NCBI GenBank assembly: GCA_049643885.1
Contig: JBARQV010000033.1
Coordinates: 11,229-75,228 of the forward strand
Direction: 5' to 3'
Length of the DNA stretch: 64,000 bases
DNA from: Candidatus Omnitrophota bacterium
Lineage (GTDB): Bacteria > Omnitrophota > Gorgyraeia > Tantalellales > Tantalellaceae
Shown here in pieces: positions 1 through 19,431 of the stretch; position 1 is the stretch's first letter, and each line of letters begins with the position of its first letter. The notes under the pieces were generated by a model. The model was not told the DNA's origin, ran no database searches, and saw only the letters and a list, made by a program, of their open reading frames with translations. Both the position numbers and the translations under genes were made by a program.

Positions 1-7
1 GCAAGAA

Positions 8-6000: not shown

Positions 6001-9000
6001 GGAAAGATTCCGTGAAAAAGACCGAGCGGAGCTTACCTACTTATGTTATGAAGCATTGAAACTCATGAATTTTATCAGAGAATTGAAAGCCAGAGCCGAT
6101 TCGCTGGGGAGACCACTTGTGTTGGTTGAGAATATTACGTACGGTTGGATGGCCACAATACCCATTGAAGAGGAGATCAAAGCCATGGGTGTAAAGATCA
6201 TAAAGACCAAAGCCGGATCGACCTTTGCTCACGATAATCCGACGGTTATGCACGGCTTGAATCCTCATGGCCCGGATGATTCCAAACTTTTTAGCGAAGA
6301 AGATCTGAGATATTTCGTAGAAGAACAGCCTTTGGTGTTGGTGGTGGACGGAACTTATTCGCTTGACCCGCAAAAAATGGCGCGTTTTAGAAGAAAAGGG
6401 GCACGATATCCAGATGCCCACCAGGCTTATCGTAATTATTTCCACGCCATAAGCGGAGAGCCTAAAGATAATGATTTTGATATCGATAGATTGCGACTTG
6501 GAAGCAAGCTTAAAGAAGATAATGTTTATAAGGCAGTAAGGAGAAGTGCCGAAGACATCAAGCCGGCGCCCGAAAGGGGTAATTACCAGATGAGATTCTG
6601 GTATCCGGGAAAGAAGTCACTTGGATTAAATAGCCAGAGAAAATCAAGAAAACTTTCAAGCCAATTAGATCTTATCAATTCTAAAAATACGGACGAACCT
6701 CTTTTAGATAAAATCAGCGGTCCGACATTAATTTTTTCTGTGGCTAACATGGAAGATGAGGCCATACCCGATAGTGTCAGGCAGGGGGGGATATATCATA
6801 ATTCCGCGCATTTTGACGACAAAGAACCCTTTGGGAGAACGTTTATTGATGTTACACCTTACGGTCCGAAGATCTCGAATGAATTTCAAAATGCAGCCAT
6901 CGCGGAATACAAGCGATTAAGCCAGCAATTAGGAGTTGTGCCGCCCCTTGCCCCGCCTGCCGTGATGGCGAGGGAAAGCCGCTGGGCCCAGTATGCGGCA
7001 CCTATGGCCGGCGGCGTTCTGGGTTTTCTCACGGTATTTTTATTCGGCTCGGCATTGTTGCCGGGCATATTGAGCGTCTTGCTTTTATCAGCGTATTTTC
7101 CGCTTGCGAGGCAAACGGCCCTGGCGCGTGAAGTTGCCGGTGAAACGGGCGTCGCCGCTAGGCCCGTGGATACGTTCGGGGATATTCTTGGCAACTTCGG
7201 GCCTATTATCGGTCCCTTGGTGTGGCTCCATGAATTTGTTCACCGCCTTACCGGCGTGTTGGGCGTAAAAAGGCTAGGCATATTTAGCAGATTTATGGAC
7301 GAGGCAATGGCTTATTCGGTCGAATCGGTATTCGCCATGCCTGTAGTTGCTGTTTCTTCGATCGTGTATGGGTTAGTCATGCTTTTCATGCCCCCCAGGG
7401 GCGAAGAAGCCCGCGCCCCGCCTGCCGAACCGGGGATAGATTTCGAGGGCGAGTGGTTGACTGTGCCCATGATCGCTGAACGTCTTGAAGAAGAGCCACA
7501 ACTTACAATTGCAATATGGGAAATGCTCACACCGGAACTTAGGAAAGCTGTTGAGAGCCTGCTTAGTGAAGAGAGGAAAAGGCTGGTTAAGATCCGACTT
7601 TTTATTTATGAACACCTGGCTGAACTCCAAAGCAAGGAAGTTTCGAGTGATCTCGAAGATAGAAAGAACAGCGCAAGTTTACTAGAGCGGCAAAGAAAAG
7701 TTTTTGAGATCGGACGAAAGGGATTTGAAGCTCATGGAGTAGAGCATGGTTTAAATGTTTTTCTACAGATCATGCTGGATGGGCTCATCCGGAATGAATT
7801 TAAGGGCCCGCTAAATATGGGACCAAAAGAGTTCTTTGCCGGTCCTTACGGACCGCATTATATCGTTCTTGATCCGCGCAGTGTCAAAAAACCGGGCTTC
7901 GAATGGCAAGAGAGGCAGAACCATTTATTATATCTTGTTCCAAACGGGTCGGACTACAGGTTACTAATAAGCTTGGTAGATAAAGCACGTGATGAAGGGA
8001 TCATTAAACCGGAAGACGCCGGATTCATAAAGAACAGGATAACGACTTATGACATGTTCATTGCAATGACTAAAGAGGTTTCTGTTCCGGAGGAAGTACC
8101 GGCTACAACAGCAGCTGTTGAGGTTCCTGTTGCAGAGGAAGCGGCTGTTACTACGGTATTTGTTGAGGCCCCTGCCATTGCGCCTGCTGAGGTTATACCC
8201 GAGGAAGAAGTTCTTCCCGAGGCGCAGAGGGTATACTCAGCGGCGAGGGATCTTATTCCGGTGCTCCTGGATCTTATAAGGAGAAATTCACCGACTTACC
8301 TTGTAGGGCCTTCTTTTCTGGAGGATCTGGCGAAAGATGAGGGACGCAACAGGAAGGTGGAAAGGGTACTGGGCAAGGAAGGCCACAGGATAGATGCCAG
8401 GTATTGCGGGTACGATCCGACGCGCGCGGATCCGGAAGAAGCCTGGTTTGAAGAACTTACAAAACCTGGTGGAATTCTTGACAGAGCACTCAAAAGGTTC
8501 GGTATAGACGTTGTGGAAAACCCAACGTCAAGAATGACCATAAGGCTTGTCAGGGGGGCGGATGAAGAAAGGAACCAGGACAGAAGAAGTAAATTAGAAG
8601 CGTTAATTGTGAAAAGGCTCATGGATATAAATCCTGTCTTGAGATCAATGCTTGAAACAATGAAAGAAGAAGATCGGAAAAACTGGTTAAGGCAGTACGT
8701 GAAGATAATAGATGTAGATGTCGAAGGTATCGAGCATGTGAATCCCGTGCTGGACCTCTTTGCCGATGCCGGGGCGATGGAGCTGGACAGGTACGAGAAA
8801 AAAGATTACAAGGACGAAGCCCCTGACGAGCTTAAGGAACGATTGGTCATACTGTTAAAGCTTTCCCTGGGCAGTCTGGTCGATTCAGAGAGAGGTGACA
8901 TACTCGAAGGCCTGACCGCGGGTAAGCTTTACGGGGTTTTAGAAAGGGTTTTTTCGGGGCTAGCGTATTTCGCGGTCAAAAGAATAGATTGGGAAAGTAT

Positions 9001-9046
9001 AAGGGACAGGATAGATGCCGAGAACGAAGTAATAAGATCGCTGTAA
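8..9046 (+). CDS. Giant multidomain protein, 5'-partial (gene continues upstream of window); 3012 aa visible. Contains TM blocks with HExxH motifs, a transglutaminase-like Cys-His-Asp core, a long alpha-helical tandem-repeat array, and a C-terminal domain shared with the next ORF
   Basis: Uninterrupted ORF of 9 kb reaching the window edge with no stop upstream; TAA at 9044-9046; strong periodic coding signal; internal paralogy to downstream ORF at 9061. Confidence 0.85.
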   Translation: MEVDGKPMQITLPSEVGNRKVLSHEIFPAWTGGFHVSFILEKTPEDIENLNKARDVSLDRIGAKIRALEEIPEQERTPETETGRMLEVLKKVQADLKARDMKDVRIFVAVSLEGEKLNAHIISGVITVPVDQLERTEVLAYSLGHESSHQFVPEVYEIDDPQVEEDKVIEVGVEVFGPMIQVSIARSPEGGYGINVTSIDINLKMDDSRAVEAVRNAFIMAWNQLEGQKARGEEIDPEYEDFVRAMLEREGLELKYEAAPGVTFLIDDAGMRVLSERTPLMVTQAFPVALAREMLVAELPETRPVVLQSLLANIASGRGMFSWFLSPLLWLLTIGSTPIHEWAHIQAIRRYGISPELLSPAQRRGEDVGTFSLIWSLIKGEVIVHKALSGVDEAHMEVHVAGVRANLRASFYFGILLGGAIAAYLSLSPLAFWPMVFLSYLTAINFISVVVEYFGRGDLAMILRESKSSVFELITRRPHLEESMLERYFYGEKRRLSRLAKRMGVNIKGFEDDIEKIRYEVAKTQVSYVIKWRAIDQSLLGDYTTPLWIAGKKDEIWQKRFNEIVSYLPRGAPIFNEIKDDQVKAKIIAEVIGEIEEAVGAARLSEREGYFHSVIGMADRSGYSEIMHARWGKEINDLYLKVKKDVAEKRRERGDLSSGYAKGMLIKEVFDSIRRNVKGDLRQAENYVKYHYVLDINQVLSDKKGVCRHMGIITAMMLEKLIQQKELDGLAFYVRRDFHAWAMYATTYGELIVLDAAQSIDGVVEQFGYLEDFARAQDPWAVLKSPASSNRERRAWARWYAKYGRDSEDLMRNPTAVRMIVERVQRQAARERAAEAEGRRDYYYGTVLTSGMGPDQLGRKDMFYMPAAVLQEIIRQGPIEEAAPQRVEPEDLVRELEPVARDVAERFRREGISPQMWNMYRRELMAKGRRRSAVFRRIHKIILDFHTSILIKEQYSRPVRHAYVRDSEALNIAIDRELATAREMLAAAPPTVVPGKGVLWFISGAIFGLMNLLGITITPARKDFVEDFIIPLLEEGGMLLVLCYWGALPYLLVRLGFAIMHARRSLIKAILGRVFLGRAPPVGEKPISQQVIEQLTIPAIASAAALLPLIALAFGVPLSPAIFGFVAGTGLFAHILGNRYVTEFKSRLQKAVLGEELGIDYEGRPAALEKVKTDYETLIRPLTNIPFDELPGATKEILFGAGVDNGLVEMSRSAGRNARDLFRSGFPVLKDAILVEGDPDRTRENLMAIASGLVRIGAASESFGHADYVFRLGLPKLIQAFGPELIREQWETFVLFGETAGKNARYLFGATLPAFRETIIVEGDVQRTRQNLLDIGNSILRVVPENDEIAEELLNNALPAVSGIIIVEGDAEKAKDNLNRIGSSVLRVLEAAGDKVRGLFRHDYPRIEAGLGAEFVKTHWEGIFRLGEAAGTAAGNFFKNGFAGFIQSFGLDFLENNWQDIVKLGEIAGKRSGYDVGNIFNRTLVGFAKIYGLEFVKDNWRDLMDIAGSTGKDAAFLLSNGFYSLEEGFGADFIKAHWKDLVEYIKTNGEYALELVKDGLPSMKEAIVVAGDEAETRQNLRAVGEALASVARAAGKQEATYVFSQHLPDIKRRFGKEFIRDCWKDMLGLGASTGKNVRYFFRYALSEFSKTIVVKEDVEKTRENLRAIGNELVKLSNAAGEHALVVFEYGIPAMIGAIAVEGNAEETAKNLDIIGSELIALALLDGEDAGRLFEYGLPALEKVLIVEQDAEKTKENLASAGKELFELAAKVTGEMRIFWRSILWSQDDIVAEGDFAQTIENLKTVGKDRVEFTNNAGMGGIAEDFFKTVFNLRSRFGLDFLPWRDVIKFGRIHFIYNLSNKVGWEFVRSYWGDLIEIGAVLGYKTGEMFNEVLPAVKSLVTPESIQDLVRWVSLGDPVDTDILKEFLALSREERADYFNTREDELARIRDGKFDIADQKHLFIGYRLILDDIRDNPTVKKDITYKEYLSYVKAGKPAKERFREKDRAELTYLCYEALKLMNFIRELKARADSLGRPLVLVENITYGWMATIPIEEEIKAMGVKIIKTKAGSTFAHDNPTVMHGLNPHGPDDSKLFSEEDLRYFVEEQPLVLVVDGTYSLDPQKMARFRRKGARYPDAHQAYRNYFHAISGEPKDNDFDIDRLRLGSKLKEDNVYKAVRRSAEDIKPAPERGNYQMRFWYPGKKSLGLNSQRKSRKLSSQLDLINSKNTDEPLLDKISGPTLIFSVANMEDEAIPDSVRQGGIYHNSAHFDDKEPFGRTFIDVTPYGPKISNEFQNAAIAEYKRLSQQLGVVPPLAPPAVMARESRWAQYAAPMAGGVLGFLTVFLFGSALLPGILSVLLLSAYFPLARQTALAREVAGETGVAARPVDTFGDILGNFGPIIGPLVWLHEFVHRLTGVLGVKRLGIFSRFMDEAMAYSVESVFAMPVVAVSSIVYGLVMLFMPPRGEEARAPPAEPGIDFEGEWLTVPMIAERLEEEPQLTIAIWEMLTPELRKAVESLLSEERKRLVKIRLFIYEHLAELQSKEVSSDLEDRKNSASLLERQRKVFEIGRKGFEAHGVEHGLNVFLQIMLDGLIRNEFKGPLNMGPKEFFAGPYGPHYIVLDPRSVKKPGFEWQERQNHLLYLVPNGSDYRLLISLVDKARDEGIIKPEDAGFIKNRITTYDMFIAMTKEVSVPEEVPATTAAVEVPVAEEAAVTTVFVEAPAIAPAEVIPEEEVLPEAQRVYSAARDLIPVLLDLIRRNSPTYLVGPSFLEDLAKDEGRNRKVERVLGKEGHRIDARYCGYDPTRADPEEAWFEELTKPGGILDRALKRFGIDVVENPTSRMTIRLVRGADEERNQDRRSKLEALIVKRLMDINPVLRSMLETMKEEDRKNWLRQYVKIIDVDVEGIEHVNPVLDLFADAGAMELDRYEKKDYKDEAPDELKERLVILLKLSLGSLVDSERGDILEGLTAGKLYGVLERVFSGLAYFAVKRIDWESIRDRIDAENEVIRSL
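2110..2280 (+). other. Transglutaminase-like cysteine-protease core (Cys-His-Asp) inside ORF 8-9046
   Basis: KGVCRHMGIITAMM...DFHAWAMYATTYGELIVLDAAQ matches the G-x-C...HAW...D signature of transglutaminase-like superfamily. Confidence 0.6.
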
Positions 9047-9060
9047 TGTGAGGTATAAAG

Positions 9061-12000
9061 ATGAATTGGCTTAAGAGGGTTCACAGGGATCAAGAGATCA
9101 AGAAGCTCTTCAGCTTCCAGAGGCGGAGTCTAGCCCTTAAAGCCTGTTCAGTTATCACCTCGGTCGCGTTTTTCTTTAATATTCTTTCTTACGATATCGC
9201 CCTTTCGGGCCCCCTCCAGAAAAAACAACCGGCTACGGAAGGGCAAGCCTGGGCCATACGAGTTCCGCCGGAGTCTTCTCACGTCGGCTCCGGTGTGAAC
9301 TCAGGCCCGGGCACTCCCCAAAAGCTTACCATCAAAGGCTTTACACTGCCCGAATATCTTGGTGTGGTGACCGACAGGTTCAGTCCCCCGGCGAAGGAAC
9401 CTGATAAGATAGTGGTTTTGATACAGGACGCGCATTGTAACTATGCGGCCCAGAAAAAGATCGCCGAGATCGTCCGGCATTTCAACAAGCTCTACCGCGT
9501 GCGCGTCGTCAACATGGAAGGAGGTAAGGGCGATTATAACCTTTCGATATTCCTGGATATAGGCGACAAGAAGGTCAGGGAAGAGGTATCCGATTACTTT
9601 GTGAAAGAGGGGCAGATAAGCGGCGCTGAATACTTCGCCATAAACGATCCTTTCAGGGCCTACTTATGGGGAGTGGAAACCTCTGAACTTTACCTGGAGA
9701 ACCTTAAAGTTTACAGGGAGTCCCTTGGATACAGAGGTGAAGTCGAGTATTTCCTGGATTCGCTTACCTATATTTTGAACAATCTTAAGCGGCACATTTA
9801 TTCGAAGGAACTCTTGGATTTTGACAACGAATATTCCCGGTATAAGGCCGGCGATATCAAATTCAAGGATTACGTGAATTACCTTTTAAGCGTGGCCAAG
9901 GAGAAAAAGGTATATATCAAGAATCTCCTGCACCTGTATTTGTTATATCACTCGATAGCATGGGAAGGGGAAATAGATTTCAAGAGAGCGGATCATGAAA
10001 GGGATATCTTGATCAGCAGGCTTGAAGGCGTTCTGTCCGGGAAGGAGATGGACGAGCTTATCAACAAGACCGTAGAGTTCAGGAACAAGAGGCTTTCGCA
10101 GACCGAATTCTACGGGTATCTCCTGAAGAAGGCGGAGGAAGTGAAGCTCGACCTGGCCGATTTCCCGGAGTTCAAAAAATACCTCGGTTATATTTTCCTC
10201 TATCATGTCGTGGACAGGGCAAAAGTAATGGAGGAGATAGGCATTCTCGAAAACGCTATAAAAGGATCTCTTTACGAGAACGATAAACAGAAGGAGCTAG
10301 ACCTTCTTTCCAAGCATTTGACTCTTACAAAGAACTTTTTCGACGCCACTTTGACAAGAAGCGATTACGAATATTACGAACAGAACAAATTAGCGTTTGA
10401 AACACAGAATTACATTTCGTTTATAGAAAAAGAAGCCCCAAAGTACAAAATAACCGCCCAACTGCCTTCTGATATACAAAATCTTGATTTTCGTATGGCC
10501 GAAATGGACAAGTTCTACGAATACTCGTTCAAGAGGGACCTCGCCTTCCTCGACAACATAAAATTTAATGCGACTGAATCTCCAACATCCAACATCCAAC
10601 AACCAACATCTATTTTGATTACCGGCGGTTTCCACGCCGAAAATCTCTGTAAGTTGTTTAAAGAAAATGATATAGCATATATATGCATAATGCCGAATTT
10701 TACGAGCGAAGAAGGTTATGTTTGCCCGTATTTCGACCTCTTGGCGGGTGAAAGACCTCAAGTTGAAATGATGATCAGCGATATCATGGGCTATTCACTT
10801 GCTATAGCGAGCATACTCAGCCAGCTGGGGCCGGACGTGTATGATGAAAACGCTCGCAGGATATTCGGGCTTCATGTTCAGTGGAAACGCGCTGTGGCGG
10901 AAGGAAAAGGCGGCCTCGCGATCATGGCAGAGGATGGGAGATTCCTCGGCGCGGTCAATGCCAGGGGAGAGATCGTCCCTGAAGACAGGTCAAAAGGCTT
11001 TGAAGTGGCGCGGGTTCCGGCAGTTGTCCCGGCTATCGCTCCGGCAACTCCCGAATTGGTGGATCTATTCGGGAACTGGTTCGATCTGAATCTGGAACTT
11101 GATTATTTTAGCGGAGAGTTTGAAAGAGGTGAGGCGAAAGGGCTGGCGGCGATACAGGAAGGGGTGCAGGCCGAAAGAGGCATGTATCCCAAAGAAGAAA
11201 TAGAAGGCGGCGATTTCTATTTTGACCTGGAAGCCTTCTCTTATTTTTCAAGGGGACTTATCGACAAAGCCACTTTAGCGGAAGTCATGAGGCCTTACAG
11301 CGATAAGCTGCCCGGCCAGATAAATGTTATAGTCGTGGACAAAGGACCAAAGGCCGTAGCCAGATACGGGAACACTATAGCGATAAACCGCGCCGTGTTC
11401 GAGCTTACGCGCGGCGTCTCTCCCGTTATCCGCAATTTGATCACTATGAAACTCCTGGACACGGCCCTGAGGGCAAGCAGCGAGACCGGTATCAGGGAAG
11501 GAGAGGATCTGGGTATTTCGCTTGCAGACCTGAGAAGGGTCGGGAGCCGCGAGAAACCGGACAGGATAATGGAAGTCATACGCCAGGTATTCTCTCCAGA
11601 GTCAAAACTCGCTTCCGACGAACAGGAAGAAAATCTGATCCTGGCTTACGATTATGACCAAAAATATATTGCTCAAGGCAGTTTCAACGAAGAGATACTG
11701 AAACAGGCCATTAAAAGAGGTTTCACCACGGTCATAGTTAGATTTTTGGAAGGCGACGTCATAGGAGGACAGGTCGAGGTCATATTCGCGAACAAGTCGG
11801 ACGTGCTAGTGGAACGGATAGATATGCTTCCCGAGAATATGGATGTTCTTTTCTCGGCCGTCGGCGAGAACATGGAACCGGGCTCCGTATGGCGCTTCAC
11901 GCGGCGTTTCCTGACATACGATATTAAACGACGAGCGTTTCTCGCAAAAGAACGCCCCAGGATAATGACCTACGAATTGGAGAGAAAACTTGAAGTGTAT

Positions 12001-15000
12001 CGCGAGAGGATCGGCGACAGGGAGCTTGAAGGGCGGAATTTCGGGTATGAATACAAGATAGAACGTGACGAAGCGAGCCCTCTTGGCAGGAAGGTAAGGA
12101 TAGACCTGACAGAGAACCCCCCGGAAGGGTTTGAGAGCGCGAGGCCTGTGATCAAGGCGAAAAAATATACTTACGAGGACATCTATGAATATTTTAATTT
12201 TTATCACAAATACTGGATGCCCAAAGAAGGACACGGTGATTGGGAGCTTAGCAGGTTCCTGAGGGAGATAGTGGCCAGTGACCTCACTCCTGAAGAGAAG
12301 CGCGAAAAGATACTGGGGTTCTTCGAAGAGTTGACCCAGGGGCAGATGTATATGGATGGCAAGGGCGTGCCGGCGCCTGATAAAGACCCGCTTGAGCTCA
12401 TCAACGGGGAGATAAGGGGCACCCCGGGACGGCTTCCCTTTGAGGAAAGGCTTCTAGCAATGCTCAAATCGCCCCCCGAAGTGCCCCCTGTCACAAGACT
12501 GGCACCTGGTAAAGGTGTCCTGGATATTGTCGCAAGGGGTGTTTTCAAGGTAACCGATCCCTTTATGGCCAGGGAAGATGCTGAAGATCTTGTCGTTCCT
12601 GTTGTTGAGGAAGGTATTATGTTTCTCGCGCTTGCGCCGTATTTATGGGGCGGCGCGCCGTCTTTGGTCGTTCTTTTTGGGGCAGTACTTTATTTTCTTT
12701 TGAGGGCAGGGTTTATTGCGGCTCACGCGCTGCAGGACAGGGCGCCCCCGGGGAGAAGAAGGACGATCTTTGAACGAATTATCATCCCCGCCCTTATATC
12801 TGTTCCCGCTTTCTCACTTCCTGTTCTGGCATTATTAGGAGCTTCTCCCATAGCCCTTGGCATTGTTGCGGGCGCGGTGACACTTTTACATATGGCCGCG
12901 AACCGCTATGTTACTTTTGCAGGCTCAAAGTTACAGAAGGCTGTTCTTGGAAGAAAGGTCGAGCGGTATATCGGAGAGACGGGGACAGATGTCGAAAGGT
13001 TTAAGGTAGACATCGGGGATGACAGGGAATCGTTACAAAAGTTTATGAAGAAAGTAAAAAGTGTTTTTATGACCGAAAGGGAGGTCGCATCATTGCAAAA
13101 CGTTCTGGCGCACGGGGAGGATTCGCTTGAAAAAATGGGGAGAGTGGGCAAACTTTGGCAGGCCGTGCGTTACGGGAACGTGAGGCAGAAAAAAGCCGAT
13201 TTTCTTAGAGGATTCCTGGAAGAAATAAACAGCACCGGGACCTTTAGTGTAGGAAGGACCGAAACTTTAGAACCAAGAAGCGTAACAAGGACCAAGAGTG
13301 ACATGGAAATGATCGAAGAACAGCGTAAGGTATACGTGGAAGGAGTGGAAGAAATATTCAAGCGCGTAGAATCGGGCCAGGAATATGATACCGGGGAACT
13401 GGCTGGGTTATTCGACAGGATCATACTCAATGTCCTGACACAGTTCGGTATAAAGGATGACGTTATGGTGGTAGGCCTCGGGAGTTACGGTAGAGGAGTC
13501 GTCCCGATAGGGTCGGATTGTGATGCCGTGTTCATAGTAAGAGGCGCCTTTCCCGGGCTTGTAAAAAAAGATATACAGGAAAGGGTGGTCTGGATACTGG
13601 AACAGATCGGCCTGGACGTCGATCCGGGAGCTCTCCTGCCCGGGGACCTGAAAGATTGGCCTACCATGGACCAGCTCAGGGCGGCATTCGATGAAGGGGT
13701 CGAAAGCGGGGAGCTTGTGGGTATAAATATGCTGTTCCTCGCGGATAACAGGCTTGTTTCGGATGCCGATGAAAAGTCGATACCGGAGTTCGGGGAATAT
13801 TGCAGGATGAGAGACGAAATAATCACCGGGAAGCACCCGGCATTTATCGCTCACCTTGTCCTGGAAATAGCGAATTTCCTGAGGATAACCGGCGGAACAA
13901 CTCCGGAAGCGGCGGGACCTTCAGCGGGCCTTATAGATATATATTACAGGTACGGGGATGATAAAGAAAGAATCATGCAGGAGATCGGCAAGAAGATAAA
14001 ATCTTTATATACAGTTGAGGATGGCGAGCTGAGACTAAGCCCCTTGGGCGAAAGTGAAATACTCCGCGACATCAGACAATTCAACGTTAAACAGGATTCC
14101 GGCGGCATGAGGAGCCTTGACTTTGTTTTATGGACAGGGAGGGTCTTGAGCGGGGTGAACGACCCCGATCCTTACAAGATCATTGAGCAGTTGTCCGCCG
14201 AGTACGCGACCGGCGAAGAAAAAGAAATATTGAGGGAAACAATGGATTATTTCATCAAGTTAAGGTCCGTTATTAATTATATCTCCTCTTTGGAAAAGGC
14301 CGAGGGGACTCCCGAGTTCATCGAACATGACACTATAGATTTCAACGATATCAGCAGCATTGAGCAGATCGTCAAAGTCATGGAACCGCAGAACGAGCTG
14401 GTGCGGAAGATCATGTCATTAGAAGGACAGGAACAGGATATAGAATCCGAACTGAGGAAACTAAGCACTATAGATACCGAGGATGTAGAGGAGAAAAGAA
14501 GATTATCGGGAGAGAGGCGGTCAGTTCGGGGAGAATTGTTGAAATCACGCAAAGAATTGGCAGGTGAGTTCCGGGGAAAGGTCAATTCCATGAGGGGTAA
14601 AATAGCGGCAATCGGTTTAAAGGCACTGGATAAATATCTTGTAAGCTTTATAAGGGAAGGCAAGATAAGGGATGAAGACGCTTTGTACGTGATGGTCCCC
14701 ATCGGCCAAAGGGCTCTTCTTGACCTGAAAAGAGAACTGAAACACCGGGGAGAGTATAGAAAAGACCTTGCCAGGGTAATGCGCGAGCGATATCGCGCTT
14801 CACGGGCTGATCTCGGCAAAGGCGTCCTGGGATTTATCGCGGCAGGTGTTTACAAATTTACTGATACCGTCATGGACCTTTTTGGCCGTGAAAAGACGCC
14901 CGGCTACAGGGCTTTTGTCGAAGATTATTTTATTCCCGTTATAGAAGAAGGCGCGATGTTCCTCGTTCTACGCTCCTGGGGGACGTTGCCGTATTTTCTC

Positions 15001-18000
15001 ATCCGGCCTGGGTTCATACTGGCTCACGCGTTCCAGGACAGAGCTCCTCCCGGGAGAAGAAGGACGATCTTCGAACGGATCATCATCCCCGCCCTTATAT
15101 CAGTTCCTGCCTTTTCACTTCCTATTCTCGCGCTTTTGGGAGCATCGCCTGTAGTACTTGGAGTTGTCGTAGGTGCGGTGACACTTTTACACATGGCCGC
15201 CAACCGCTTTGTAACTCTAACAGGTTCCAGACTCCAGAAAGCCGTTCTGGGAAAGAAGTTTGTCCAGCCTCCCGTGAGAAAGGCCAGGATCATTTCAATA
15301 AGAGGAGAAAAGGTTTCAGATACGTATCCTGTTGTGCCTGTAACTGTTCGCGAGGAAGCGGAACCGGTGCCCGGAGTCGAATTTATAGCGACGGAGGAGA
15401 TACTCGATGAACTGATGACCGATTATCCCGAAAGGATCCTCAGAGACCGCGGGATGGACGCCGAACAATATTCAAGGCTCGCTGAAACAGCCGTTGTCAC
15501 GAACAAAAAACCGATCAAAGTCGATCCCAGCGGGAGGGAATGGATAGGTGAGCGGTATATCATCGGGCGGACCCCGTCGGGCGAGGATATTGAACTTGGC
15601 AGAGGCGGCGTAGCTGTTGTTTATTATGGCCTTGATACTCAAAGTGGAGATGAGATCGTTTTAAAGGTTCCTGAAGAAGAAAGAGCTGTTCCCGGTAAAG
15701 AAAAATTACCGTTTGAACTTAAGAAAATGTCATTATTACGCGAGGCGGCATTCATAGAATACGTGAAGGAGCAGGAAAAACAAGGCCGTGTGGATCTTGA
15801 GGGCGGGGTGGTAGATTTACGCGACGCAGGGGTCTACAGGGGGGCGTACCTTGATGATAAGGGGCGTCCGACCGGGAAGGAATACACCAATTATTATATA
15901 GCAATGGGTTACGTTCATGGTTTGACGCTGGGGGATCTTTTGAACCAGCGCGGTCCACTTGCGGAAGACGAAGCCAGGGCTCTTTTTGAAAGGGTATACG
16001 ATACAACAAGAAAACTCCACAAGATAGGCGTGATCCATATGGACATAAAATCGGATAACATCTTCATTCCTCTGGTCAACGGCAAGCTTGAGTTCGGGAA
16101 AGCCGTGCTGGGAGATTTCGGCTTTTCGATAAAAGTCGATAATGTCGATGGCCAGTATGTTCACGATTTCACGTACGGGACTGAAGGGTACGTACCGCCG
16201 GAGGGGGGCGTAGGTGTATTTTCAGGGAGGAACGACATGTACGCCCTGGGCATGACGCTTTATGAAATGATGACCGGCACGGTAATCGAAGATGGCGTCA
16301 AGGCGGAATTCACGCCCGACATGGAAAGTGCGCTTCCCGCCGATCTGGTCGCTGTTGTCAGATTGTTGACACAGGAAAACTGGGAAGAGTCGTCAGTTCT
16401 GGCGGAAGGCGTAACCGGGATATTGGAGAGAGGAAAAGTCGCCATAGCGGACGATGTCGTTCTTGAGGATTTTGAAGGGTTTGAACTCGAGGACATGGTC
16501 TTAAAGCTCATGAAGCCCGGTCAGAAATACTCAAGGGAGGAATTTAAAGCCGAGGTAGAGAAACTCAAGTTATTTTTAACGCGTGCGATAGGGGTCAATC
16601 TCCGGCAGATGGCCGGTGATATTTCGGAAGCGAAGTTCGGCGCCGGCAAGCGCGACGGATTCAAACGTTTCATCGTTAAAAAGATCCGGCATGCCGGGCG
16701 CGGCGATTACAAGCACGCGTTAAGGGTCGAGGCTGATACCGACCAAGGCCGGCAGGTCTTCGCGGTCAAGTTCCTGAAGCCCAAAAGGCCCGAGTATACT
16801 TTTGAGGGTTTTAAGAAAATGATAAAAACAGAATACGAAAATAGCAGGAGATTAAGTGAAACGGGTTTAGCGGCGGATTATTACGGGGAACCTTATTATG
16901 TCGGTGAACGGTTCGATGAAAAGTTCTCAAAAGGATTAGAAGAGCATGGCATCCTGGGCTTGCTTGTGGGTGAATATGTGGAAGGTACGCCTGTCAGTGA
17001 GATATACGAAAGAGATGAAAGGAAAGAAGCGTATCGCGGATTAGTGAAAGCCACGGTCCGTCTCTGGCTAGAGACTTATGATCCTGAAACGCAGGCCGGT
17101 CTTGTTTTGTATGACCTTGCCGGGAGGAATTATGTGCTTGAGGATGGAACGGGCAGAATAAAGACCATAGATCCCGCGTTTTTGGATCCGTTCAATGTTG
17201 ATTACCTGAGAGACATGATAAGCGCTCTTCTCATAGCGGAATTGGCCATGGAAAAAGAAGGTATAAGGTTCGACGCGATGCCGGGCGGCGCGGACGAGAT
17301 GTATTTCCTTTCGGCGATACCGGAGGAGATAAATGATTACCTGAGGGAAAAAGGCGATAGTTTGGACGAAAGGAAAAAGAGGGCCGTCATGGAGCTTCGT
17401 GGAGCCGAGGCGTTAAGGGACATCCAGGTAGCCGTTGAGGAAAAGATCGACCTACAAAAAGCTATTGCTGACGCGTCAGGCAGAGGCGATGTGATACGGA
17501 TGGCCGAGCTAAGCGACGGAAAAGAACTGGAAATACATGACGCTAAAGCGTTAGTGCGGGACGATGAGGAGATGTTCAAAGAACTTCTGGCGGCGGTCCA
17601 GAAGGTTGTAGCTTCTTCTTTCGGGCCTTCAAAAGCATACGGGCTTGCGGCTGAGTTGAGGATAAAGCAGATCCTCCAGGAGAACGAGGTGATGATAGCC
17701 GTTGTGGGTAACGAAGTGATCGGCTTTCTGGCATATCAGTTCAAGCCCGGGGAAGCCCGGAGTATTTTAGACTGGTTTGCCGTGATGCAGGAGCATCAGG
17801 GCAAAGGCATCGGCTCGAGGATGATGGACGAATTCATGGAGGTGTCACTGAAAGCCCGCGAGACCGGCATCGAAAAGGCCTGGTGGCATTCATGGGACGA
17901 AAAGTCAGACGATTTTTATATTGGATATTTTAGAAAAAAAGGAATAAAACCTGAACAGGTCGGACGTAATTTTACTCTTGGACTGGATGCAGTTGGCGCG

Positions 18001-19431
18001 GCAATGGCTCCTGACCACGGGGCGATAATGAGAGGGCTCAGGCCGGAGGACGTGGAAGAAGCCATAACCGGTGATGTCGACAAGAGCACGTTGTCCGAAG
18101 AGTTCAAGGCGATCGAAGAAATGCTTGACGATAGCTCATTAGAAAGGAACAGGACACTTCGCGAGCTGGCAGATAAACTGGAGATCCCATGGGATCTTAT
18201 GCTTTCAAGGATCAAAAAAGCCAGGGACGACCTTCTGAAAGGAAATAAAGCATTGAAGGAGTTTCCCGCCATTGTCCGCGGTCTCGATGAATATGCTCTT
18301 GGCATGGCCACGGAAGACAAAATAACTTACAGCACAGAGATCCTCGCGATGTTACCCGCGCCCTTGAGAGCCGAATATGTCCTGCACGAAGCGATCTGTT
18401 ATTATTTCCCGGGATTGGAGGGGCACCAGACCGCCAGGCAGATACAGATGGTCCTGTTCCCGCGGAATTACGGGAACCTGACGCCTGAAGAAAGAGAAGA
18501 ACTTGAGGGGACAGAGGCGCTGACAGGTGACTTAACGTTGTTTTTAAGCGCATTTATCGATGTAACGGCCCCGCCGCTTGAAGGCCCGCCGGCTGAAAGA
18601 AAAGCGCAGGAGATCTACGCCCAGGCCAGGATGCTGGCCCCGGCGCTTGCCGATGCCGTAAGGCGGGGCGCGCCGACGTATGACATAGGGCCGTCATTTT
18701 TCAGGGACATGGCCCGGGACGAGCAATGCAATAAGGAAGTAGCGAGGATACTCGGCAAAAAAGGCCACAATATTTACGCCAGGCATTGCGCGTTCGACCC
18801 CACGAAAGATACTGCCGCGAAATGGTTCGAAAATATGGTCGAAGACAGGCCCGGGGGAGTCCTTTACGACATGCTGGAGACTTTCAGCCGGGACGCCTCA
18901 GTAGACCCAAGGACCAGGATGACTATCAGGCTTATAAGAGGGCCGGATGAAGCAGGGAACAAGGCAAGAAGAAAAGATATGGAAGGTTTTATTTTAAGGA
19001 ACCTTAAGCTCATGAATCCCGATCTGGCAGAGAGACTGGAGACGATGAGCGAGGCCGAAAGAAATGAGTGGTTCAACAAACATGTGAAGGTATTGGACGT
19101 GGATGTCGGGAATATTGAACACGTCAACCCTGTGCTGGATCTTATTACGGACATCGGCGTCATGGAGCTTGACCGCTACGCGAAGCACGATTACGAAGGT
19201 AAAGCTCCGCGGGACCTTGAGGAGAACCTTGTCAGACTATTGAACCTTTCGATAGGGAGTTTTGTGAATATCGATACGAAACAGGCGCTTAAAAAGGTCT
19301 CCCGTAAAGATCTATACAGGGTTTTAGCAGCCCTTTTTACGGGAAATATGTACATTATGGTAAGGAAGATCGACTGGGGCAGCATAAGGGAGAAGATCAG
19401 GGCCCAGAATGCTGTCCTTAAATCGTTGTAA
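9061..19431 (+). CDS. Giant multidomain protein (3456 aa): N-terminal signal/anchor + conserved 'QDAHCN' module, two polytopic TM modules, GlnE/GlnD-like nucleotidyltransferase, Hanks-type Ser/Thr kinase, second atypical kinase-like fold, GNAT acetyltransferase-like segment, conserved C-terminal domain
   Basis: ATG at 9061 preceded by GAGGT 6 nt upstream; 14 nt after stop of upstream ORF; 10.4 kb uninterrupted ORF; multiple recognisable catalytic motifs in-frame. Confidence 0.9.
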   Translation: MNWLKRVHRDQEIKKLFSFQRRSLALKACSVITSVAFFFNILSYDIALSGPLQKKQPATEGQAWAIRVPPESSHVGSGVNSGPGTPQKLTIKGFTLPEYLGVVTDRFSPPAKEPDKIVVLIQDAHCNYAAQKKIAEIVRHFNKLYRVRVVNMEGGKGDYNLSIFLDIGDKKVREEVSDYFVKEGQISGAEYFAINDPFRAYLWGVETSELYLENLKVYRESLGYRGEVEYFLDSLTYILNNLKRHIYSKELLDFDNEYSRYKAGDIKFKDYVNYLLSVAKEKKVYIKNLLHLYLLYHSIAWEGEIDFKRADHERDILISRLEGVLSGKEMDELINKTVEFRNKRLSQTEFYGYLLKKAEEVKLDLADFPEFKKYLGYIFLYHVVDRAKVMEEIGILENAIKGSLYENDKQKELDLLSKHLTLTKNFFDATLTRSDYEYYEQNKLAFETQNYISFIEKEAPKYKITAQLPSDIQNLDFRMAEMDKFYEYSFKRDLAFLDNIKFNATESPTSNIQQPTSILITGGFHAENLCKLFKENDIAYICIMPNFTSEEGYVCPYFDLLAGERPQVEMMISDIMGYSLAIASILSQLGPDVYDENARRIFGLHVQWKRAVAEGKGGLAIMAEDGRFLGAVNARGEIVPEDRSKGFEVARVPAVVPAIAPATPELVDLFGNWFDLNLELDYFSGEFERGEAKGLAAIQEGVQAERGMYPKEEIEGGDFYFDLEAFSYFSRGLIDKATLAEVMRPYSDKLPGQINVIVVDKGPKAVARYGNTIAINRAVFELTRGVSPVIRNLITMKLLDTALRASSETGIREGEDLGISLADLRRVGSREKPDRIMEVIRQVFSPESKLASDEQEENLILAYDYDQKYIAQGSFNEEILKQAIKRGFTTVIVRFLEGDVIGGQVEVIFANKSDVLVERIDMLPENMDVLFSAVGENMEPGSVWRFTRRFLTYDIKRRAFLAKERPRIMTYELERKLEVYRERIGDRELEGRNFGYEYKIERDEASPLGRKVRIDLTENPPEGFESARPVIKAKKYTYEDIYEYFNFYHKYWMPKEGHGDWELSRFLREIVASDLTPEEKREKILGFFEELTQGQMYMDGKGVPAPDKDPLELINGEIRGTPGRLPFEERLLAMLKSPPEVPPVTRLAPGKGVLDIVARGVFKVTDPFMAREDAEDLVVPVVEEGIMFLALAPYLWGGAPSLVVLFGAVLYFLLRAGFIAAHALQDRAPPGRRRTIFERIIIPALISVPAFSLPVLALLGASPIALGIVAGAVTLLHMAANRYVTFAGSKLQKAVLGRKVERYIGETGTDVERFKVDIGDDRESLQKFMKKVKSVFMTEREVASLQNVLAHGEDSLEKMGRVGKLWQAVRYGNVRQKKADFLRGFLEEINSTGTFSVGRTETLEPRSVTRTKSDMEMIEEQRKVYVEGVEEIFKRVESGQEYDTGELAGLFDRIILNVLTQFGIKDDVMVVGLGSYGRGVVPIGSDCDAVFIVRGAFPGLVKKDIQERVVWILEQIGLDVDPGALLPGDLKDWPTMDQLRAAFDEGVESGELVGINMLFLADNRLVSDADEKSIPEFGEYCRMRDEIITGKHPAFIAHLVLEIANFLRITGGTTPEAAGPSAGLIDIYYRYGDDKERIMQEIGKKIKSLYTVEDGELRLSPLGESEILRDIRQFNVKQDSGGMRSLDFVLWTGRVLSGVNDPDPYKIIEQLSAEYATGEEKEILRETMDYFIKLRSVINYISSLEKAEGTPEFIEHDTIDFNDISSIEQIVKVMEPQNELVRKIMSLEGQEQDIESELRKLSTIDTEDVEEKRRLSGERRSVRGELLKSRKELAGEFRGKVNSMRGKIAAIGLKALDKYLVSFIREGKIRDEDALYVMVPIGQRALLDLKRELKHRGEYRKDLARVMRERYRASRADLGKGVLGFIAAGVYKFTDTVMDLFGREKTPGYRAFVEDYFIPVIEEGAMFLVLRSWGTLPYFLIRPGFILAHAFQDRAPPGRRRTIFERIIIPALISVPAFSLPILALLGASPVVLGVVVGAVTLLHMAANRFVTLTGSRLQKAVLGKKFVQPPVRKARIISIRGEKVSDTYPVVPVTVREEAEPVPGVEFIATEEILDELMTDYPERILRDRGMDAEQYSRLAETAVVTNKKPIKVDPSGREWIGERYIIGRTPSGEDIELGRGGVAVVYYGLDTQSGDEIVLKVPEEERAVPGKEKLPFELKKMSLLREAAFIEYVKEQEKQGRVDLEGGVVDLRDAGVYRGAYLDDKGRPTGKEYTNYYIAMGYVHGLTLGDLLNQRGPLAEDEARALFERVYDTTRKLHKIGVIHMDIKSDNIFIPLVNGKLEFGKAVLGDFGFSIKVDNVDGQYVHDFTYGTEGYVPPEGGVGVFSGRNDMYALGMTLYEMMTGTVIEDGVKAEFTPDMESALPADLVAVVRLLTQENWEESSVLAEGVTGILERGKVAIADDVVLEDFEGFELEDMVLKLMKPGQKYSREEFKAEVEKLKLFLTRAIGVNLRQMAGDISEAKFGAGKRDGFKRFIVKKIRHAGRGDYKHALRVEADTDQGRQVFAVKFLKPKRPEYTFEGFKKMIKTEYENSRRLSETGLAADYYGEPYYVGERFDEKFSKGLEEHGILGLLVGEYVEGTPVSEIYERDERKEAYRGLVKATVRLWLETYDPETQAGLVLYDLAGRNYVLEDGTGRIKTIDPAFLDPFNVDYLRDMISALLIAELAMEKEGIRFDAMPGGADEMYFLSAIPEEINDYLREKGDSLDERKKRAVMELRGAEALRDIQVAVEEKIDLQKAIADASGRGDVIRMAELSDGKELEIHDAKALVRDDEEMFKELLAAVQKVVASSFGPSKAYGLAAELRIKQILQENEVMIAVVGNEVIGFLAYQFKPGEARSILDWFAVMQEHQGKGIGSRMMDEFMEVSLKARETGIEKAWWHSWDEKSDDFYIGYFRKKGIKPEQVGRNFTLGLDAVGAAMAPDHGAIMRGLRPEDVEEAITGDVDKSTLSEEFKAIEEMLDDSSLERNRTLRELADKLEIPWDLMLSRIKKARDDLLKGNKALKEFPAIVRGLDEYALGMATEDKITYSTEILAMLPAPLRAEYVLHEAICYYFPGLEGHQTARQIQMVLFPRNYGNLTPEEREELEGTEALTGDLTLFLSAFIDVTAPPLEGPPAERKAQEIYAQARMLAPALADAVRRGAPTYDIGPSFFRDMARDEQCNKEVARILGKKGHNIYARHCAFDPTKDTAAKWFENMVEDRPGGVLYDMLETFSRDASVDPRTRMTIRLIRGPDEAGNKARRKDMEGFILRNLKLMNPDLAERLETMSEAERNEWFNKHVKVLDVDVGNIEHVNPVLDLITDIGVMELDRYAKHDYEGKAPRDLEENLVRLLNLSIGSFVNIDTKQALKKVSRKDLYRVLAALFTGNMYIMVRKIDWGSIREKIRAQNAVLKSL
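13390..14290 (+). other. GlnE/GlnD-type nucleotidyltransferase domain inside ORF 9061-19431
   Basis: VVGLGSYGRGVVPIGSDCDAVFIV matches hG[GS]...[DE]h[DE]h nucleotidyltransferase motif with downstream helical domain typical of GlnE/GlnD-like enzymes. Confidence 0.55.
15550..16300 (+). other. Hanks-type Ser/Thr protein kinase domain inside ORF 9061-19431
   Basis: GRGGVAVVYYG (Gly loop), IVLKV (VAIK), HMDIKSDNIF (catalytic loop), GDFGFS (DFG), GYVPPE (APE), DMYALGMTLYEMMTG. Confidence 0.75.
17600..17900 (+). other. GNAT acetyltransferase-like segment inside ORF 9061-19431
   Basis: IGFLAYQF...FAVMQEHQGKGIGSRMMDEF resembles GNAT motif A (Q/R-x-x-G-x-G/A) with preceding beta-strands. Confidence 0.5.

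What the first reader, a model, noticed from the sequence alone, without database searches (positions are those of the whole stretch)
12505..15260. Repeated polytopic membrane module (PGKGVL ... NR[YF]VT..S[KR]LQKAVLG) inserted three times inside giant proteins
A block of about 150 aa with 3-4 predicted TM helices occurs once in ORF1 (nt 2985-3475) and twice in ORF2 (12505-12960 and 14815-15260), with long identical stretches. These include EEG(G/A)M(F/L)LVL, APPGRRRTIFERIIIPALISVPAFSLP(V/I)LALLGASP and LLHMAANR(Y/F)VT. The two ORF2 copies are near-identical and bracket the nucleotidyltransferase region. Soluble enzymatic domains such as the kinase, NTase and GNAT are thus interspersed with membrane-embedded modules, so these giants probably thread the membrane repeatedly or carry their own translocation/anchoring cassettes.
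Basis: seen in the sequence. Interest (0 to 1): 0.7.

Follow-up and report, generated by a model that had tools for sequence, protein, structure and literature searches.

The report
Protease-like membrane module inside giant proteins
A rare ~150-residue membrane domain, found almost only inside giant proteins of Omnitrophota-type bacteria, carries buried Glu-Glu/His/His-Asn residues arranged as in Rce1-type intramembrane proteases, so it may be an enzyme that cuts the giants rather than a plain anchor.

Summary
A ~150-aa hydrophobic module occurs once in ORF1 (nt 2972-3487) and twice in ORF2 (nt 12490-12969 and 14797-15270). The two ORF2 copies are an old duplication under purifying selection (dS 1.2, dN 0.21), and five assemblies reproduce ORF2 exactly, so this is not an assembly artefact.

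An exhaustive profile search of 1.84 billion representative proteins found only 30 carriers. Nearly all are 1.6-7.7 kaa proteins, and the named ones come from Omnitrophota or Auribacterota. Pfam, NCBIfam and PDB sequences give no match.

Across 30 copies, seven residues are invariant: E-E, R, H, P, H and N. A confident AlphaFold model (pLDDT 86) places E-E, R..F...H and H...N on helices 2, 3 and 5. This is the motif order of CPBP/Rce1 glutamic intramembrane proteases.

Both module borders carry a K-[GA]-V-L motif (40 of 45 family occurrences; 2.2 expected by chance).

Best reading: a new, minimal CPBP-like catalytic membrane domain. Its four-TM core leaves both flanks on the same side of the membrane. 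It may self-process the giants at its borders; that step is inferred, not shown.

The parts
2..9046 (+). ORF1, a giant gene whose N-terminus is cut by the window edge (3957 aa in full). It carries module copy 1.
   Evidence: The full length comes from the gene call on L001. The missing N-terminal part is seen in P0001.
2972..3487 (+). Module copy 1 (ORF1 window aa 991-1162). Border GKGVL nt 2990-3004; EE nt 3107-3112; R..F...H nt 3167-3190; RAPP nt 3239-3250; H...N nt 3407-3421; border LQKAVLG nt 3449-3469.
   Evidence: (HMM 235 bits).
9061..19431 (+). ORF2, a 3456-aa giant protein. Order of parts: N-terminal TM and conserved head, module A, NTase-like segment, module B, Ser/Thr kinase, GNAT, conserved C-terminal tail.
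   Evidence: The exact protein is present in five assemblies.
12490..12969 (+). Module copy 2 (ORF2 aa 1144-1303). GKGVL nt 12508-12522; EE nt 12607-12612; R..F...H nt 12703-12726; H...N nt 12889-12903; LQKAVLG nt 12931-12951. It has a 12-residue longer stretch between EE and the first His than copy B.
   Evidence: (238 bits).
12970..14796 (+). Soluble segment bracketed by the two ORF2 modules. It is putatively nucleotidyltransferase/GlnD-like.
   Evidence: Pfam GlnD_UR_UTase at E 0.029, below the cut-off. A GS...DxD-like motif is visible in the translation. No PDB sequence match.
14797..15270 (+). Module copy 3 (ORF2 aa 1913-2070), the reference for residue numbering. GKGVL nt 14815-14829; E50/E51 nt 14944-14949; R70..F73...H77 nt 15004-15027; H132...N136 nt 15190-15204; LQKAVLG nt 15232-15252.
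   Evidence: (290 bits).
15592..16296 (+). Ser/Thr protein kinase domain, downstream of module B.
   Evidence: Pfam Pkinase E 3.9e-24, ORF2 aa 2178-2412.
17677..17919 (+). GNAT acetyltransferase domain.
   Evidence: Pfam Acetyltransf_1 E 7e-9, ORF2 aa 2873-2953.

Best explanation
The repeated block is a distinct domain family not represented in Pfam, NCBIfam or PDB sequences. It has about 150 residues and five helices: an amphipathic or variable first helix plus four hydrophobic transmembrane helices. Its occurrence is almost restricted to internal positions of giant multi-enzyme proteins of Omnitrophota and related PVC-group bacteria.

The domain carries an invariant set of buried polar residues. 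E-E lies on helix 2, R..F...H on helix 3 and H...N on helix 5. This is the same residue set, order and helix assignment as the catalytic constellation of CPBP/Rce1-type glutamic intramembrane proteases (EE on TM4, FxxxH on TM5, HxxxN on TM7).

The most likely mechanism has three steps.
1. The four-TM core inserts as two hairpins. Both flanking soluble parts stay on the same, probably cytoplasmic, side, and the giant is tethered to the inner membrane. This step is inferred from hydropathy and charge.
2. The E-E/H/H-N site, sitting in the cytoplasm-facing half of the bundle, acts as a hydrolytic centre. This step is inferred from the motif analogy.
3. The flexible K-[GA]-V-L segments that delimit every copy may be its cis substrates. 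The module would then cut the giant into functional pieces. For ORF2 these would be head | NTase part | kinase-GNAT-tail. This step is a hypothesis only.
For: 1. The copies are real, selected and reproducible.
2. The family is rare and specific. There are 30 hits at E<=1e-3 among 1.84e9 representatives, nearly all 1.6-7.7 kaa, with up to 3 module matches per protein. The named carriers are Omnitrophota and Ca. Theseobacter of the Auribacterota.
3. In a 30-copy alignment with 27% mean column identity, E50, E51, R70, H77, P98, H132 and N136 are invariant. L11, E42, P47, Y66, F73, S102 and K148 are at least 90% conserved.
4. The AlphaFold2 model has pLDDT 86 and pTM 0.78. Its helices are 12-29, 35-61, 63-78, 91-113 and 118-142, which puts the motifs on helices 2, 3 and 5.
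5. CPBP motif definitions and helix positions come from PMC11980579 and PMC6588880.
6. hhalign against bona fide PF02517 proteins aligns P..EE with AP..EE, F...H with F...H and H...N with H...N in one colinear alignment.
8. The four core helices are hydrophobic in all copies. The inter-helix loops are short and neutral, while loop 3-4 and the tail are positively charged.
9. The motif [GSQAE]K[GA]VL occurs 45 times in 104 kaa of family proteins, against 2.2 expected. Forty of these are at module borders, which lie in flexible, low-confidence ends of the model.
10. Precedent exists. PrsW, a CPBP/APH-1 relative, is fused to polymorphic toxins and predicted to autoprocess them (PMC3482391). Post-translational cleavage of Omnitrophota giants has already been proposed (bioRxiv 10.1101/2023.11.21.568195).
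Against: - Homology to CPBP is not statistically established. No Pfam or NCBIfam hit to PF02517 or any relative was found at E<=10 for any of 30-32 members. No PDB sequence hit was found.
- hhalign gives only 9% probability (P 0.0037) with a 6-sequence CPBP profile and 3.3% (E 0.013) with a 122-sequence profile. In the second case only EE and FxxxH align. In a block-shuffle null, 31 of 150 shuffles scored as high as the real alignment.
- The Arg of the canonical EExxxR motif is absent. The invariant Arg sits on the next helix.
- The module has 4-5 helices, against 7-8 in Rce1, PrsW and APH-1.
- No direct evidence of cleavage exists. K[GA]VL is not enriched elsewhere in the giants.
- If helix 1 is a true TM helix, as it may be in 8 of 30 copies, the two border motifs would lie on opposite sides of the membrane.
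- I could not obtain model coordinates, so the clustering of the invariant residues in 3D was not verified.
Confidence: 0.5

Rival explanations
1. Passive membrane anchor or topogenic cassette. The module only tethers the giant to the membrane or threads it through, and has no chemistry of its own.
For: Four hydrophobic helices are present in every copy. Omnitrophota giants are known to be rich in TM segments. No significant match to any enzyme family was found.
Against: Seven residues are invariant, six of them polar or charged and lying on the core hydrophobic helices, across copies that are otherwise about 27% identical. Such conservation is not expected of a mere anchor. The even number of consistent TM helices leaves both flanks on one side, so the module does not thread neighbouring domains across the membrane. 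There is no insertase-like fold among the hits.
Confidence: 0.17
2. A CPBP/APH-1-like fold used non-proteolytically. It could be a substrate-presenting or scaffold unit, as in APH-1, LnsB and SpdC. It could also be a different membrane enzyme such as an acyl- or lipid-transferase acting on envelope lipids or on the neighbouring domains.
For: The best structural match is APH-1B, which has no protease activity of its own. CPBP-fold proteins with non-protease roles are documented (PMC7387801). The EExxxR arginine is missing.
Against: The documented non-proteolytic members have lost the catalytic residues (PMC7387801). Here E-E, H, H and N are invariant. The conserved flexible border motifs are more easily explained as substrates or linkers for a protease.
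Confidence: 0.17
3. A cofactor- or metal-binding helical bundle. The two His and the Glu pair would ligate a metal or haem, and the module would serve sensing or redox functions that regulate the adjacent kinase, NTase or GNAT domains.
Confidence: 0.1
4. Assembly or annotation artefact: a collapsed or duplicated repeat, or a non-coding region.
For: Repeats inside very long ORFs of metagenome assemblies are a known source of error.
Against: The DNA of the two ORF2 copies is only 78% identical, with dS about 1.2 and dN/dS about 0.18. The identical 3456-aa ORF2 is found in five assemblies from several data sets. Homologous modules occur in about 30 other protein clusters.
Confidence: 0.01

Closest known systems
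CPBP family (Rce1 / Abi / YdiL, Pfam PF02517), glutamic intramembrane endopeptidases
   Same: Paired glutamates lie in one TM helix, F...H in the next and H...N two helices later. The order and approximate spacing agree: EE to H is 26-38 residues and H to H is 55 residues in the three window copies. The predicted active site is in the cytoplasm-facing half of the bundle. hhalign puts all three motifs in register.
[quoted passage not shown]
PrsW-peptidase fusions in polymorphic toxins (Zhang et al. 2012, PMC3482391)
   Same: A membrane-embedded peptidase of the CPBP/APH-1/PrsW assemblage is fused in cis to soluble enzymatic cargo. It is predicted to autoprocess and release that cargo.
   Different: PrsW domains have about 8 TM helices, sit at the N-terminus and precede a single C-terminal toxin. 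Here the module is minimal, internal and repeated. The flanking domains are a kinase, an NTase-like segment and a GNAT within 2-8 kaa proteins. No PrsW Pfam hit was found.
Giant proteins of Omnitrophota ('Archaeovorins', West-Roberts et al. 2023; 2026 complete-genome survey)
   Same: The phylum is the same. They are very long ORFs with many TM segments and many unrelated enzyme domains. Embedded peptidases (C39, S8) have been proposed to cleave them.
   Different: The window's proteins are 2.3-4 kaa, not over 30 kaa. They have no SecA-DEAD domain in Pfam. The module, its motifs and its borders are not mentioned in those papers in my term searches.
Membrane-associated cis-acting autoproteases of viral polyproteins, such as HCV or pestivirus NS2 (my own knowledge, not tested here)
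   Same: Conceptually the same: a hydrophobic protease domain inside a long polypeptide that cuts at its own border.
   Different: The fold, chemistry (Cys/His) and biology are unrelated. This is an analogy only.

Membership tests
CPBP / Rce1-like (PF02517) | Two adjacent glutamates inside a TM helix (motif 1, EE) | tested here: met
   E50 and E51 are invariant in 30 copies. They lie on model helix 35-61.
CPBP / Rce1-like (PF02517) | Arginine of the EExxxR motif on the same helix | tested here: not met
   No conserved R or K lies 3-5 residues after EE. The invariant R70 is on the next helix, 7 residues before H77.
CPBP / Rce1-like (PF02517) | FxxxH on the following TM helix (motif 2) | tested here: met
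   F73 is at least 90% conserved and H77 is invariant, on helix 63-78.
CPBP / Rce1-like (PF02517) | HxxxN/D on a later TM helix (motif on TM7 of Rce1) | tested here: met
   H132 and N136 are invariant on helix 118-142, two helices after FxxxH. The definition is from PMC11980579.
CPBP / Rce1-like (PF02517) | Significant sequence or profile similarity to family members | tested here: not met
   hmmscan against Pfam gave no PF02517 hit at E<=10 for 32 members. hhalign gave probabilities of 9% and 3.3%. The block-shuffle null reached the real score in 31 of 150 trials.
CPBP / Rce1-like (PF02517) | Fold similarity to MmRce1 (4CAD) or APH-1 | tested here: inconclusive
CPBP / Rce1-like (PF02517) | Peptide-bond hydrolysis dependent on the Glu/His residues | not testable with these tools
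   This needs biochemistry.
PrsW-type autoprocessing toxin fusions | N-terminal ~8-TM PrsW domain (PF13367) followed by a C-terminal toxin | tested here: not met
   No PrsW hit in Pfam. The module is internal, has 4-5 helices and is repeated.
Archaeovorin-type giant proteins of Omnitrophota | Over 30,000 aa with SecA-DEAD and preprotein-binding domains and numerous TM regions (bioRxiv 10.1101/2023.11.21.568195) | tested here: not met
   The ORFs are 905-3957 aa. No SecA domains were found at E<=0.1.
YidC/Oxa1-type insertase (translocation cassette idea) | Sequence or fold similarity to the YidC core | tested here: not met

The most novel reading that the evidence does not exclude
The module is a self-excising intramembrane protease cassette. 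It cuts at the K-[GA]-V-L motifs on both of its borders, converting giant Omnitrophota ORFs into membrane-organised polyproteins. A membrane-embedded glutamic protease domain would be the processing enzyme. The cassette would have spread by duplication within and between giant genes.
Probability: 0.2. Interest if true: 0.8.

Novelty: new variant of a known kind. Interest (0 to 1): 0.58.

Why it matters
It is an open question whether the giant proteins of ultra-small, probably predatory or epibiotic Omnitrophota act as single polypeptides or are cut into pieces. The answer has been limited by not knowing any cleavage points (bioRxiv 10.1101/2023.11.21.568195).

This module gives a concrete candidate processing enzyme, with five residues to mutate. 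It also gives concrete candidate cleavage sites, the K-[GA]-V-L borders. Both can be checked in existing metaproteomes or by expressing a 1-kaa fragment.

Independently of cleavage, it defines a new, very rare membrane domain family that current libraries do not detect. If the CPBP relationship holds, it would be the smallest and most divergent version of the glutamic intramembrane protease core. It would also be the first found repeated inside multi-enzyme proteins.

The even-TM topology also bears on a known puzzle. Topology predictors place ATP-dependent domains of these giants outside the cell.

Tried and rejected
- Pfam on whole ORFs and on isolated modules found no family for the module. 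NCBIfam found none either.
- A PDB sequence search with a 32-copy profile gave nothing at E<=10.
- The word-indexed homologue search with the 3-copy alignment returned nothing. I treat it as uninformative.
- The first AlphaFold run, with 3 sequences, was poor (pLDDT 61) and was not used.
- The afdb50 fold library was not available.
- Foldseek against the PDB gave no hit at E<=0.001.
- hhalign against CPBP looked promising (P 0.0037, three motifs in register). It failed my block-shuffle control and did not improve with a 122-sequence CPBP profile. I do not count it as evidence of homology.
- The metagenome-contig scan found only one extra locus, L009, too few to deepen the profile. The 30-copy alignment was too diverse for that tool.
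- P0020 seemed to start with the module and to lack the N-border motif. However, the frame stays open for 144 codons up to the contig end, so it is uninformative.
- Profile searches of the shared N-terminal head against Pfam and PDB found nothing. A Pfam scan of the C-terminal tail segment found nothing either.
- blastp self-comparison did not detect the short helical repeats of ORF1. A regular expression did.
- An intein/Hint reading was rejected. The only support was one Hint_2 hit at E 0.19 in 32 members, and there are no conserved Cys/Ser/Thr-His-Asn splice junctions.


Full report
**Context.** The first 40 kb of the window is a head-to-tail array of very long plus-strand ORFs.
- ORF1: nt 2-9046, cut at the window edge; 3957 aa in full on L001.
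- ORF2: nt 9061-19431, 3456 aa.
- ORF3: 2320 aa. ORF4: 905 aa. ORF5: 2454 aa. ORF6: 1103 aa.

The rest of the window holds ordinary chromosomal genes: aldo-keto reductase, GH1, FabG/FabF-like, acyl-CoA dehydrogenase, ETF, SMC and a GAF-GGDEF protein. ORF2, ORF3, ORF5 and ORF6 share a ~550-aa N-terminal head; the full-length ORF1 (P0001) carries the head's QDAHCNY motif. ORF1 and ORF2 share a ~300-aa C-terminal tail. Relatives that carry a source name are Candidatus Omnitrophota or Ca. Theseobacter exili of the Auribacterota, PVC group. One MAG is labelled Planctomycetia. The window is therefore most likely from an Omnitrophota-type genome, a phylum known for giant, TM-rich proteins.

**Checking the observation.**
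- ORF1 aa 991-1162, nt 2972-3487.
- ORF2 aa 1144-1303, nt 12490-12969.
- ORF2 aa 1913-2070, nt 14797-15270.

Pairwise protein identity is 70% between the two ORF2 copies and 43-46% between either and the ORF1 copy. blastp E-values are 5e-26 and 7e-19. An HMM built from the three copies finds only these three in all six frames of the window.

The DNA of the ORF2 copies is 78% identical over 267 nt. Nei-Gojobori estimates are dS 1.2 and dN 0.21 overall. For the C-terminal half, dN is 0.11 with dS 1.08. This is an old duplication held by purifying selection, neither an assembly duplicate nor a recent gene conversion. The exact ORF2 protein is encoded in five assemblies.

'Near-identical' is an overstatement, and the quoted long identical strings are shared by the ORF2 pair only. 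The flanking kinase and GNAT domains are confirmed by Pfam. The NTase assignment is weak.

**Distribution.** A profile of the three copies was scored by HMMER against 1.84 billion representative proteins. Thirty proteins reached E<=1e-3 and 19 reached E<=1e-10. Two of the weak hits (P0022, P0025) are tandem-repeat surface proteins and look spurious.

The others are almost all giants of 1.6-7.7 kaa, or fragments of such proteins. They have one to three module matches each, always internal. Many have the same N-terminal head, and some have the same C-terminal tail as the window's ORFs. Pattern scans found two more loci in 185,579 species genomes and one in the JGI metagenome collection. The module is thus real, rare and tied to this family of giant proteins.

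**Anatomy.** In an alignment of 30 copies with 27% mean column identity, seven residues are invariant: E50, E51, R70, H77, P98, H132 and N136. Numbering follows ORF2 copy B. Seven more are at least 90% conserved: L11, E42, P47, Y66, F73, S102 and K148.

With this alignment AlphaFold2 gives a confident model (pLDDT 86.1, pTM 0.78). It has five helices at 12-29, 35-61, 63-78, 91-113 and 118-142, with disordered ends. E-E therefore lies on helix 2, R..F...H on helix 3 and H...N on helix 5.

Family-wide hydropathy shows that helices 2-5 are hydrophobic in all copies, with mean Kyte-Doolittle values of 1.1-1.6 despite the buried charges. Loops 2-3 and 4-5 are short and neutral. Loop 3-4 (often QDRAPPxGRxRT) and the C-terminal tail are positively charged. 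Helix 1 is TM-like in 8 of 30 copies and clearly not in 15 of 30.

By the positive-inside rule, an inference, the consistent core is a four-TM bundle with both ends on the cytoplasmic side. The polar constellation sits in the cytoplasm-facing half. This fits the cytoplasmic nature of the neighbouring ATP- and acetyl-CoA-dependent domains. It argues against the module carrying neighbouring domains across the membrane.

**Border motifs.** Every complete copy starts with x-[GS]-K-G-V-L, often followed by x-P. It ends with L-Q-K-[AG]-V-L-G. K is conserved at 86-90% and L at 63-93%. The pattern [GSQAE]K[GA]VL occurs 45 times in 104,107 residues of family proteins, against 2.2 expected from composition. 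Forty occurrences are at module borders, and one more is the end of a split copy. Both motifs lie just outside the first and last helices, in lower-confidence parts of the model.

In P0021 and P0027 the loop after the first His carries an insertion of several hundred residues. The domain therefore tolerates being split between helices 3 and 4.

**What it resembles.** The set E-E / F...H / H...N, on consecutive helices with one spacer helix before the last, defines the CPBP (Rce1, Abi, YdiL) glutamic intramembrane proteases. In those enzymes EExxxR is on TM4, FxxxH on TM5 and HxxxN on TM7, with catalytic residues E140, H173, H227 and N231 in MmRce1 numbering (from my own knowledge; the papers read, PMC11980579 and PMC6588880, give the motifs and the MrtX residues). 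I tested membership in four ways.

1. *HMMER.* No member of the family hits PF02517 or any related model, even at E<=10. The profile hits no PDB sequence.
2. *Profile-profile comparison.* I collected bona fide PF02517 proteins: 6 from a consensus-like seed, then 122 in total. hhalign with the small profile aligns all three motifs colinearly but at only 9% probability (P 0.0037). In my control, block-shuffled CPBP profiles reached that score in 31 of 150 trials. Reversed profiles scored lower, at 11-12. The larger profile gave 3.3% probability and aligned only the first two motifs.
4. *Motif details.* The canonical Arg of EExxxR is missing, and an invariant Arg sits on the next helix.

My conclusion is that the module works like, and may descend from, the CPBP/PrsW/APH-1 assemblage, but membership is unproven. 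I do not file it as a CPBP family member.

**Mechanism proposed.** Shown: a conserved, selected, four-TM-core domain with invariant buried acidic, His and Asn residues and conserved flexible borders, embedded between soluble enzyme regions. Inferred: it anchors the giant as two hairpins and forms a hydrolytic site analogous to that of Rce1.

Hypothesised: the two K-[GA]-V-L segments are cis substrates. On that reading ORF2 would be cut into three parts: head plus unknown region, NTase-like part, and kinase/GNAT/tail. The aliphatic-aliphatic pair after a small residue loosely recalls the 'AAX' that Rce1 removes. This is an analogy from my own knowledge and was not tested.

Two precedents make the idea reasonable. 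PrsW domains fused to polymorphic toxins are predicted to autoprocess them (PMC3482391). Cleavage of Omnitrophota giants by embedded C39 and S8 peptidases has been suggested. ORF1 also contains two TM-embedded HExxH motifs, so these giants may carry more than one kind of membrane protease-like unit.

**Rivals.**
- *Passive anchor.* This does not explain the invariant polar set.
- *Non-proteolytic CPBP-like scaffold or another membrane enzyme.* Possible, since APH-1, LnsB and SpdC are such cases (PMC7387801). Those proteins, however, have lost the catalytic residues.
- *Metal- or haem-binding sensor bundle.* It cannot be excluded without coordinates or biochemistry.
- *Assembly artefact.* Excluded.

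**Unresolved.** ORF2 begins with a basic stretch followed by one hydrophobic segment (aa 24-42). If that is an N-in signal anchor, the head would be exported, and an odd number of further crossings would be needed to return the kinase to the cytoplasm. The even-TM modules do not supply these. The same kind of inconsistency was noted for other Omnitrophota giants. A dedicated topology predictor is needed.

**Verdict.** The feature is a new variant of a known kind: a minimal, highly divergent, CPBP-like intramembrane domain, repeated inside giant proteins and delimited by its own border motif. Interest is moderate to high, mainly because it offers a testable handle on whether and where these giants are processed.

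Noticed in passing
window 2-40192 (ORF1-ORF6): There is an operon-like array of six long plus-strand ORFs separated by only 12-14 nt at the first two junctions. ORF2, ORF3, ORF5 and ORF6 share a ~550-aa N-terminal head after a single N-terminal hydrophobic segment; the full-length ORF1 (P0001) carries the head's QDAHCNY motif. The head motifs are HIQDAHCNYxAQ ... NLEGG ... GAEYF ... TGGFHxENL. It has no Pfam or PDB-sequence match.
   Followed up: partly
window 8150-9046 and 18547-19431: ORF1 and ORF2 share a ~300-aa C-terminal tail (47% identity) that ends in ...IDWESIR..I.A.N.V..SL-stop. Similar ends are seen in P0003, P0014 and P0026. This could be a common sorting or assembly domain of the family.
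   Followed up: partly
window 1025-1039 and 7229-7243: ORF1 has two HExxH motifs (HEWAH, HEFVH) set in hydrophobic, TM-like surroundings. They may be membrane metalloprotease-like modules. Similar motifs occur in P0007, P0011 and P0026. There is no Pfam hit.
   Followed up: partly
window ~3710-5413 (ORF1 aa 1237-1804): At least eight copies of a VEGDxExTxxNL motif occur at 45-46 or 85-86 aa spacing, directly downstream of the ORF1 module. They look like a helical-repeat array. blastp self-comparison did not detect them.
   Followed up: partly
L008 434-11736 (GCA_028715345.1): A module-bearing giant (P0020) lies directly upstream of SMC and a GAF-GGDEF gene. The same neighbours are found at window 51886-56708, which suggests conserved synteny of the giant-gene locus.
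   Followed up: no
P0021 aa 1407-1944; P0027 aa 2369-2710: In these two proteins the module is split by an insertion of several hundred residues in the loop after the first His. The second half (H...N helix and K-G-V-L border) follows far downstream.
   Followed up: no
window 16500-17400 (ORF2 aa ~2480-2780): A second kinase-like region lies downstream of the Pfam-detected kinase, between it and the GNAT domain. I read this in the translation only, from the sequence context '...LAGRNYVLEDGTGRIKTIDPAF...'.
   Followed up: no
window 1-64000: GC skew is positive in every 2-kb bin, reaching 0.24. AT skew is positive in all bins but one. Nearly all long ORFs are on the plus strand.
   Followed up: no
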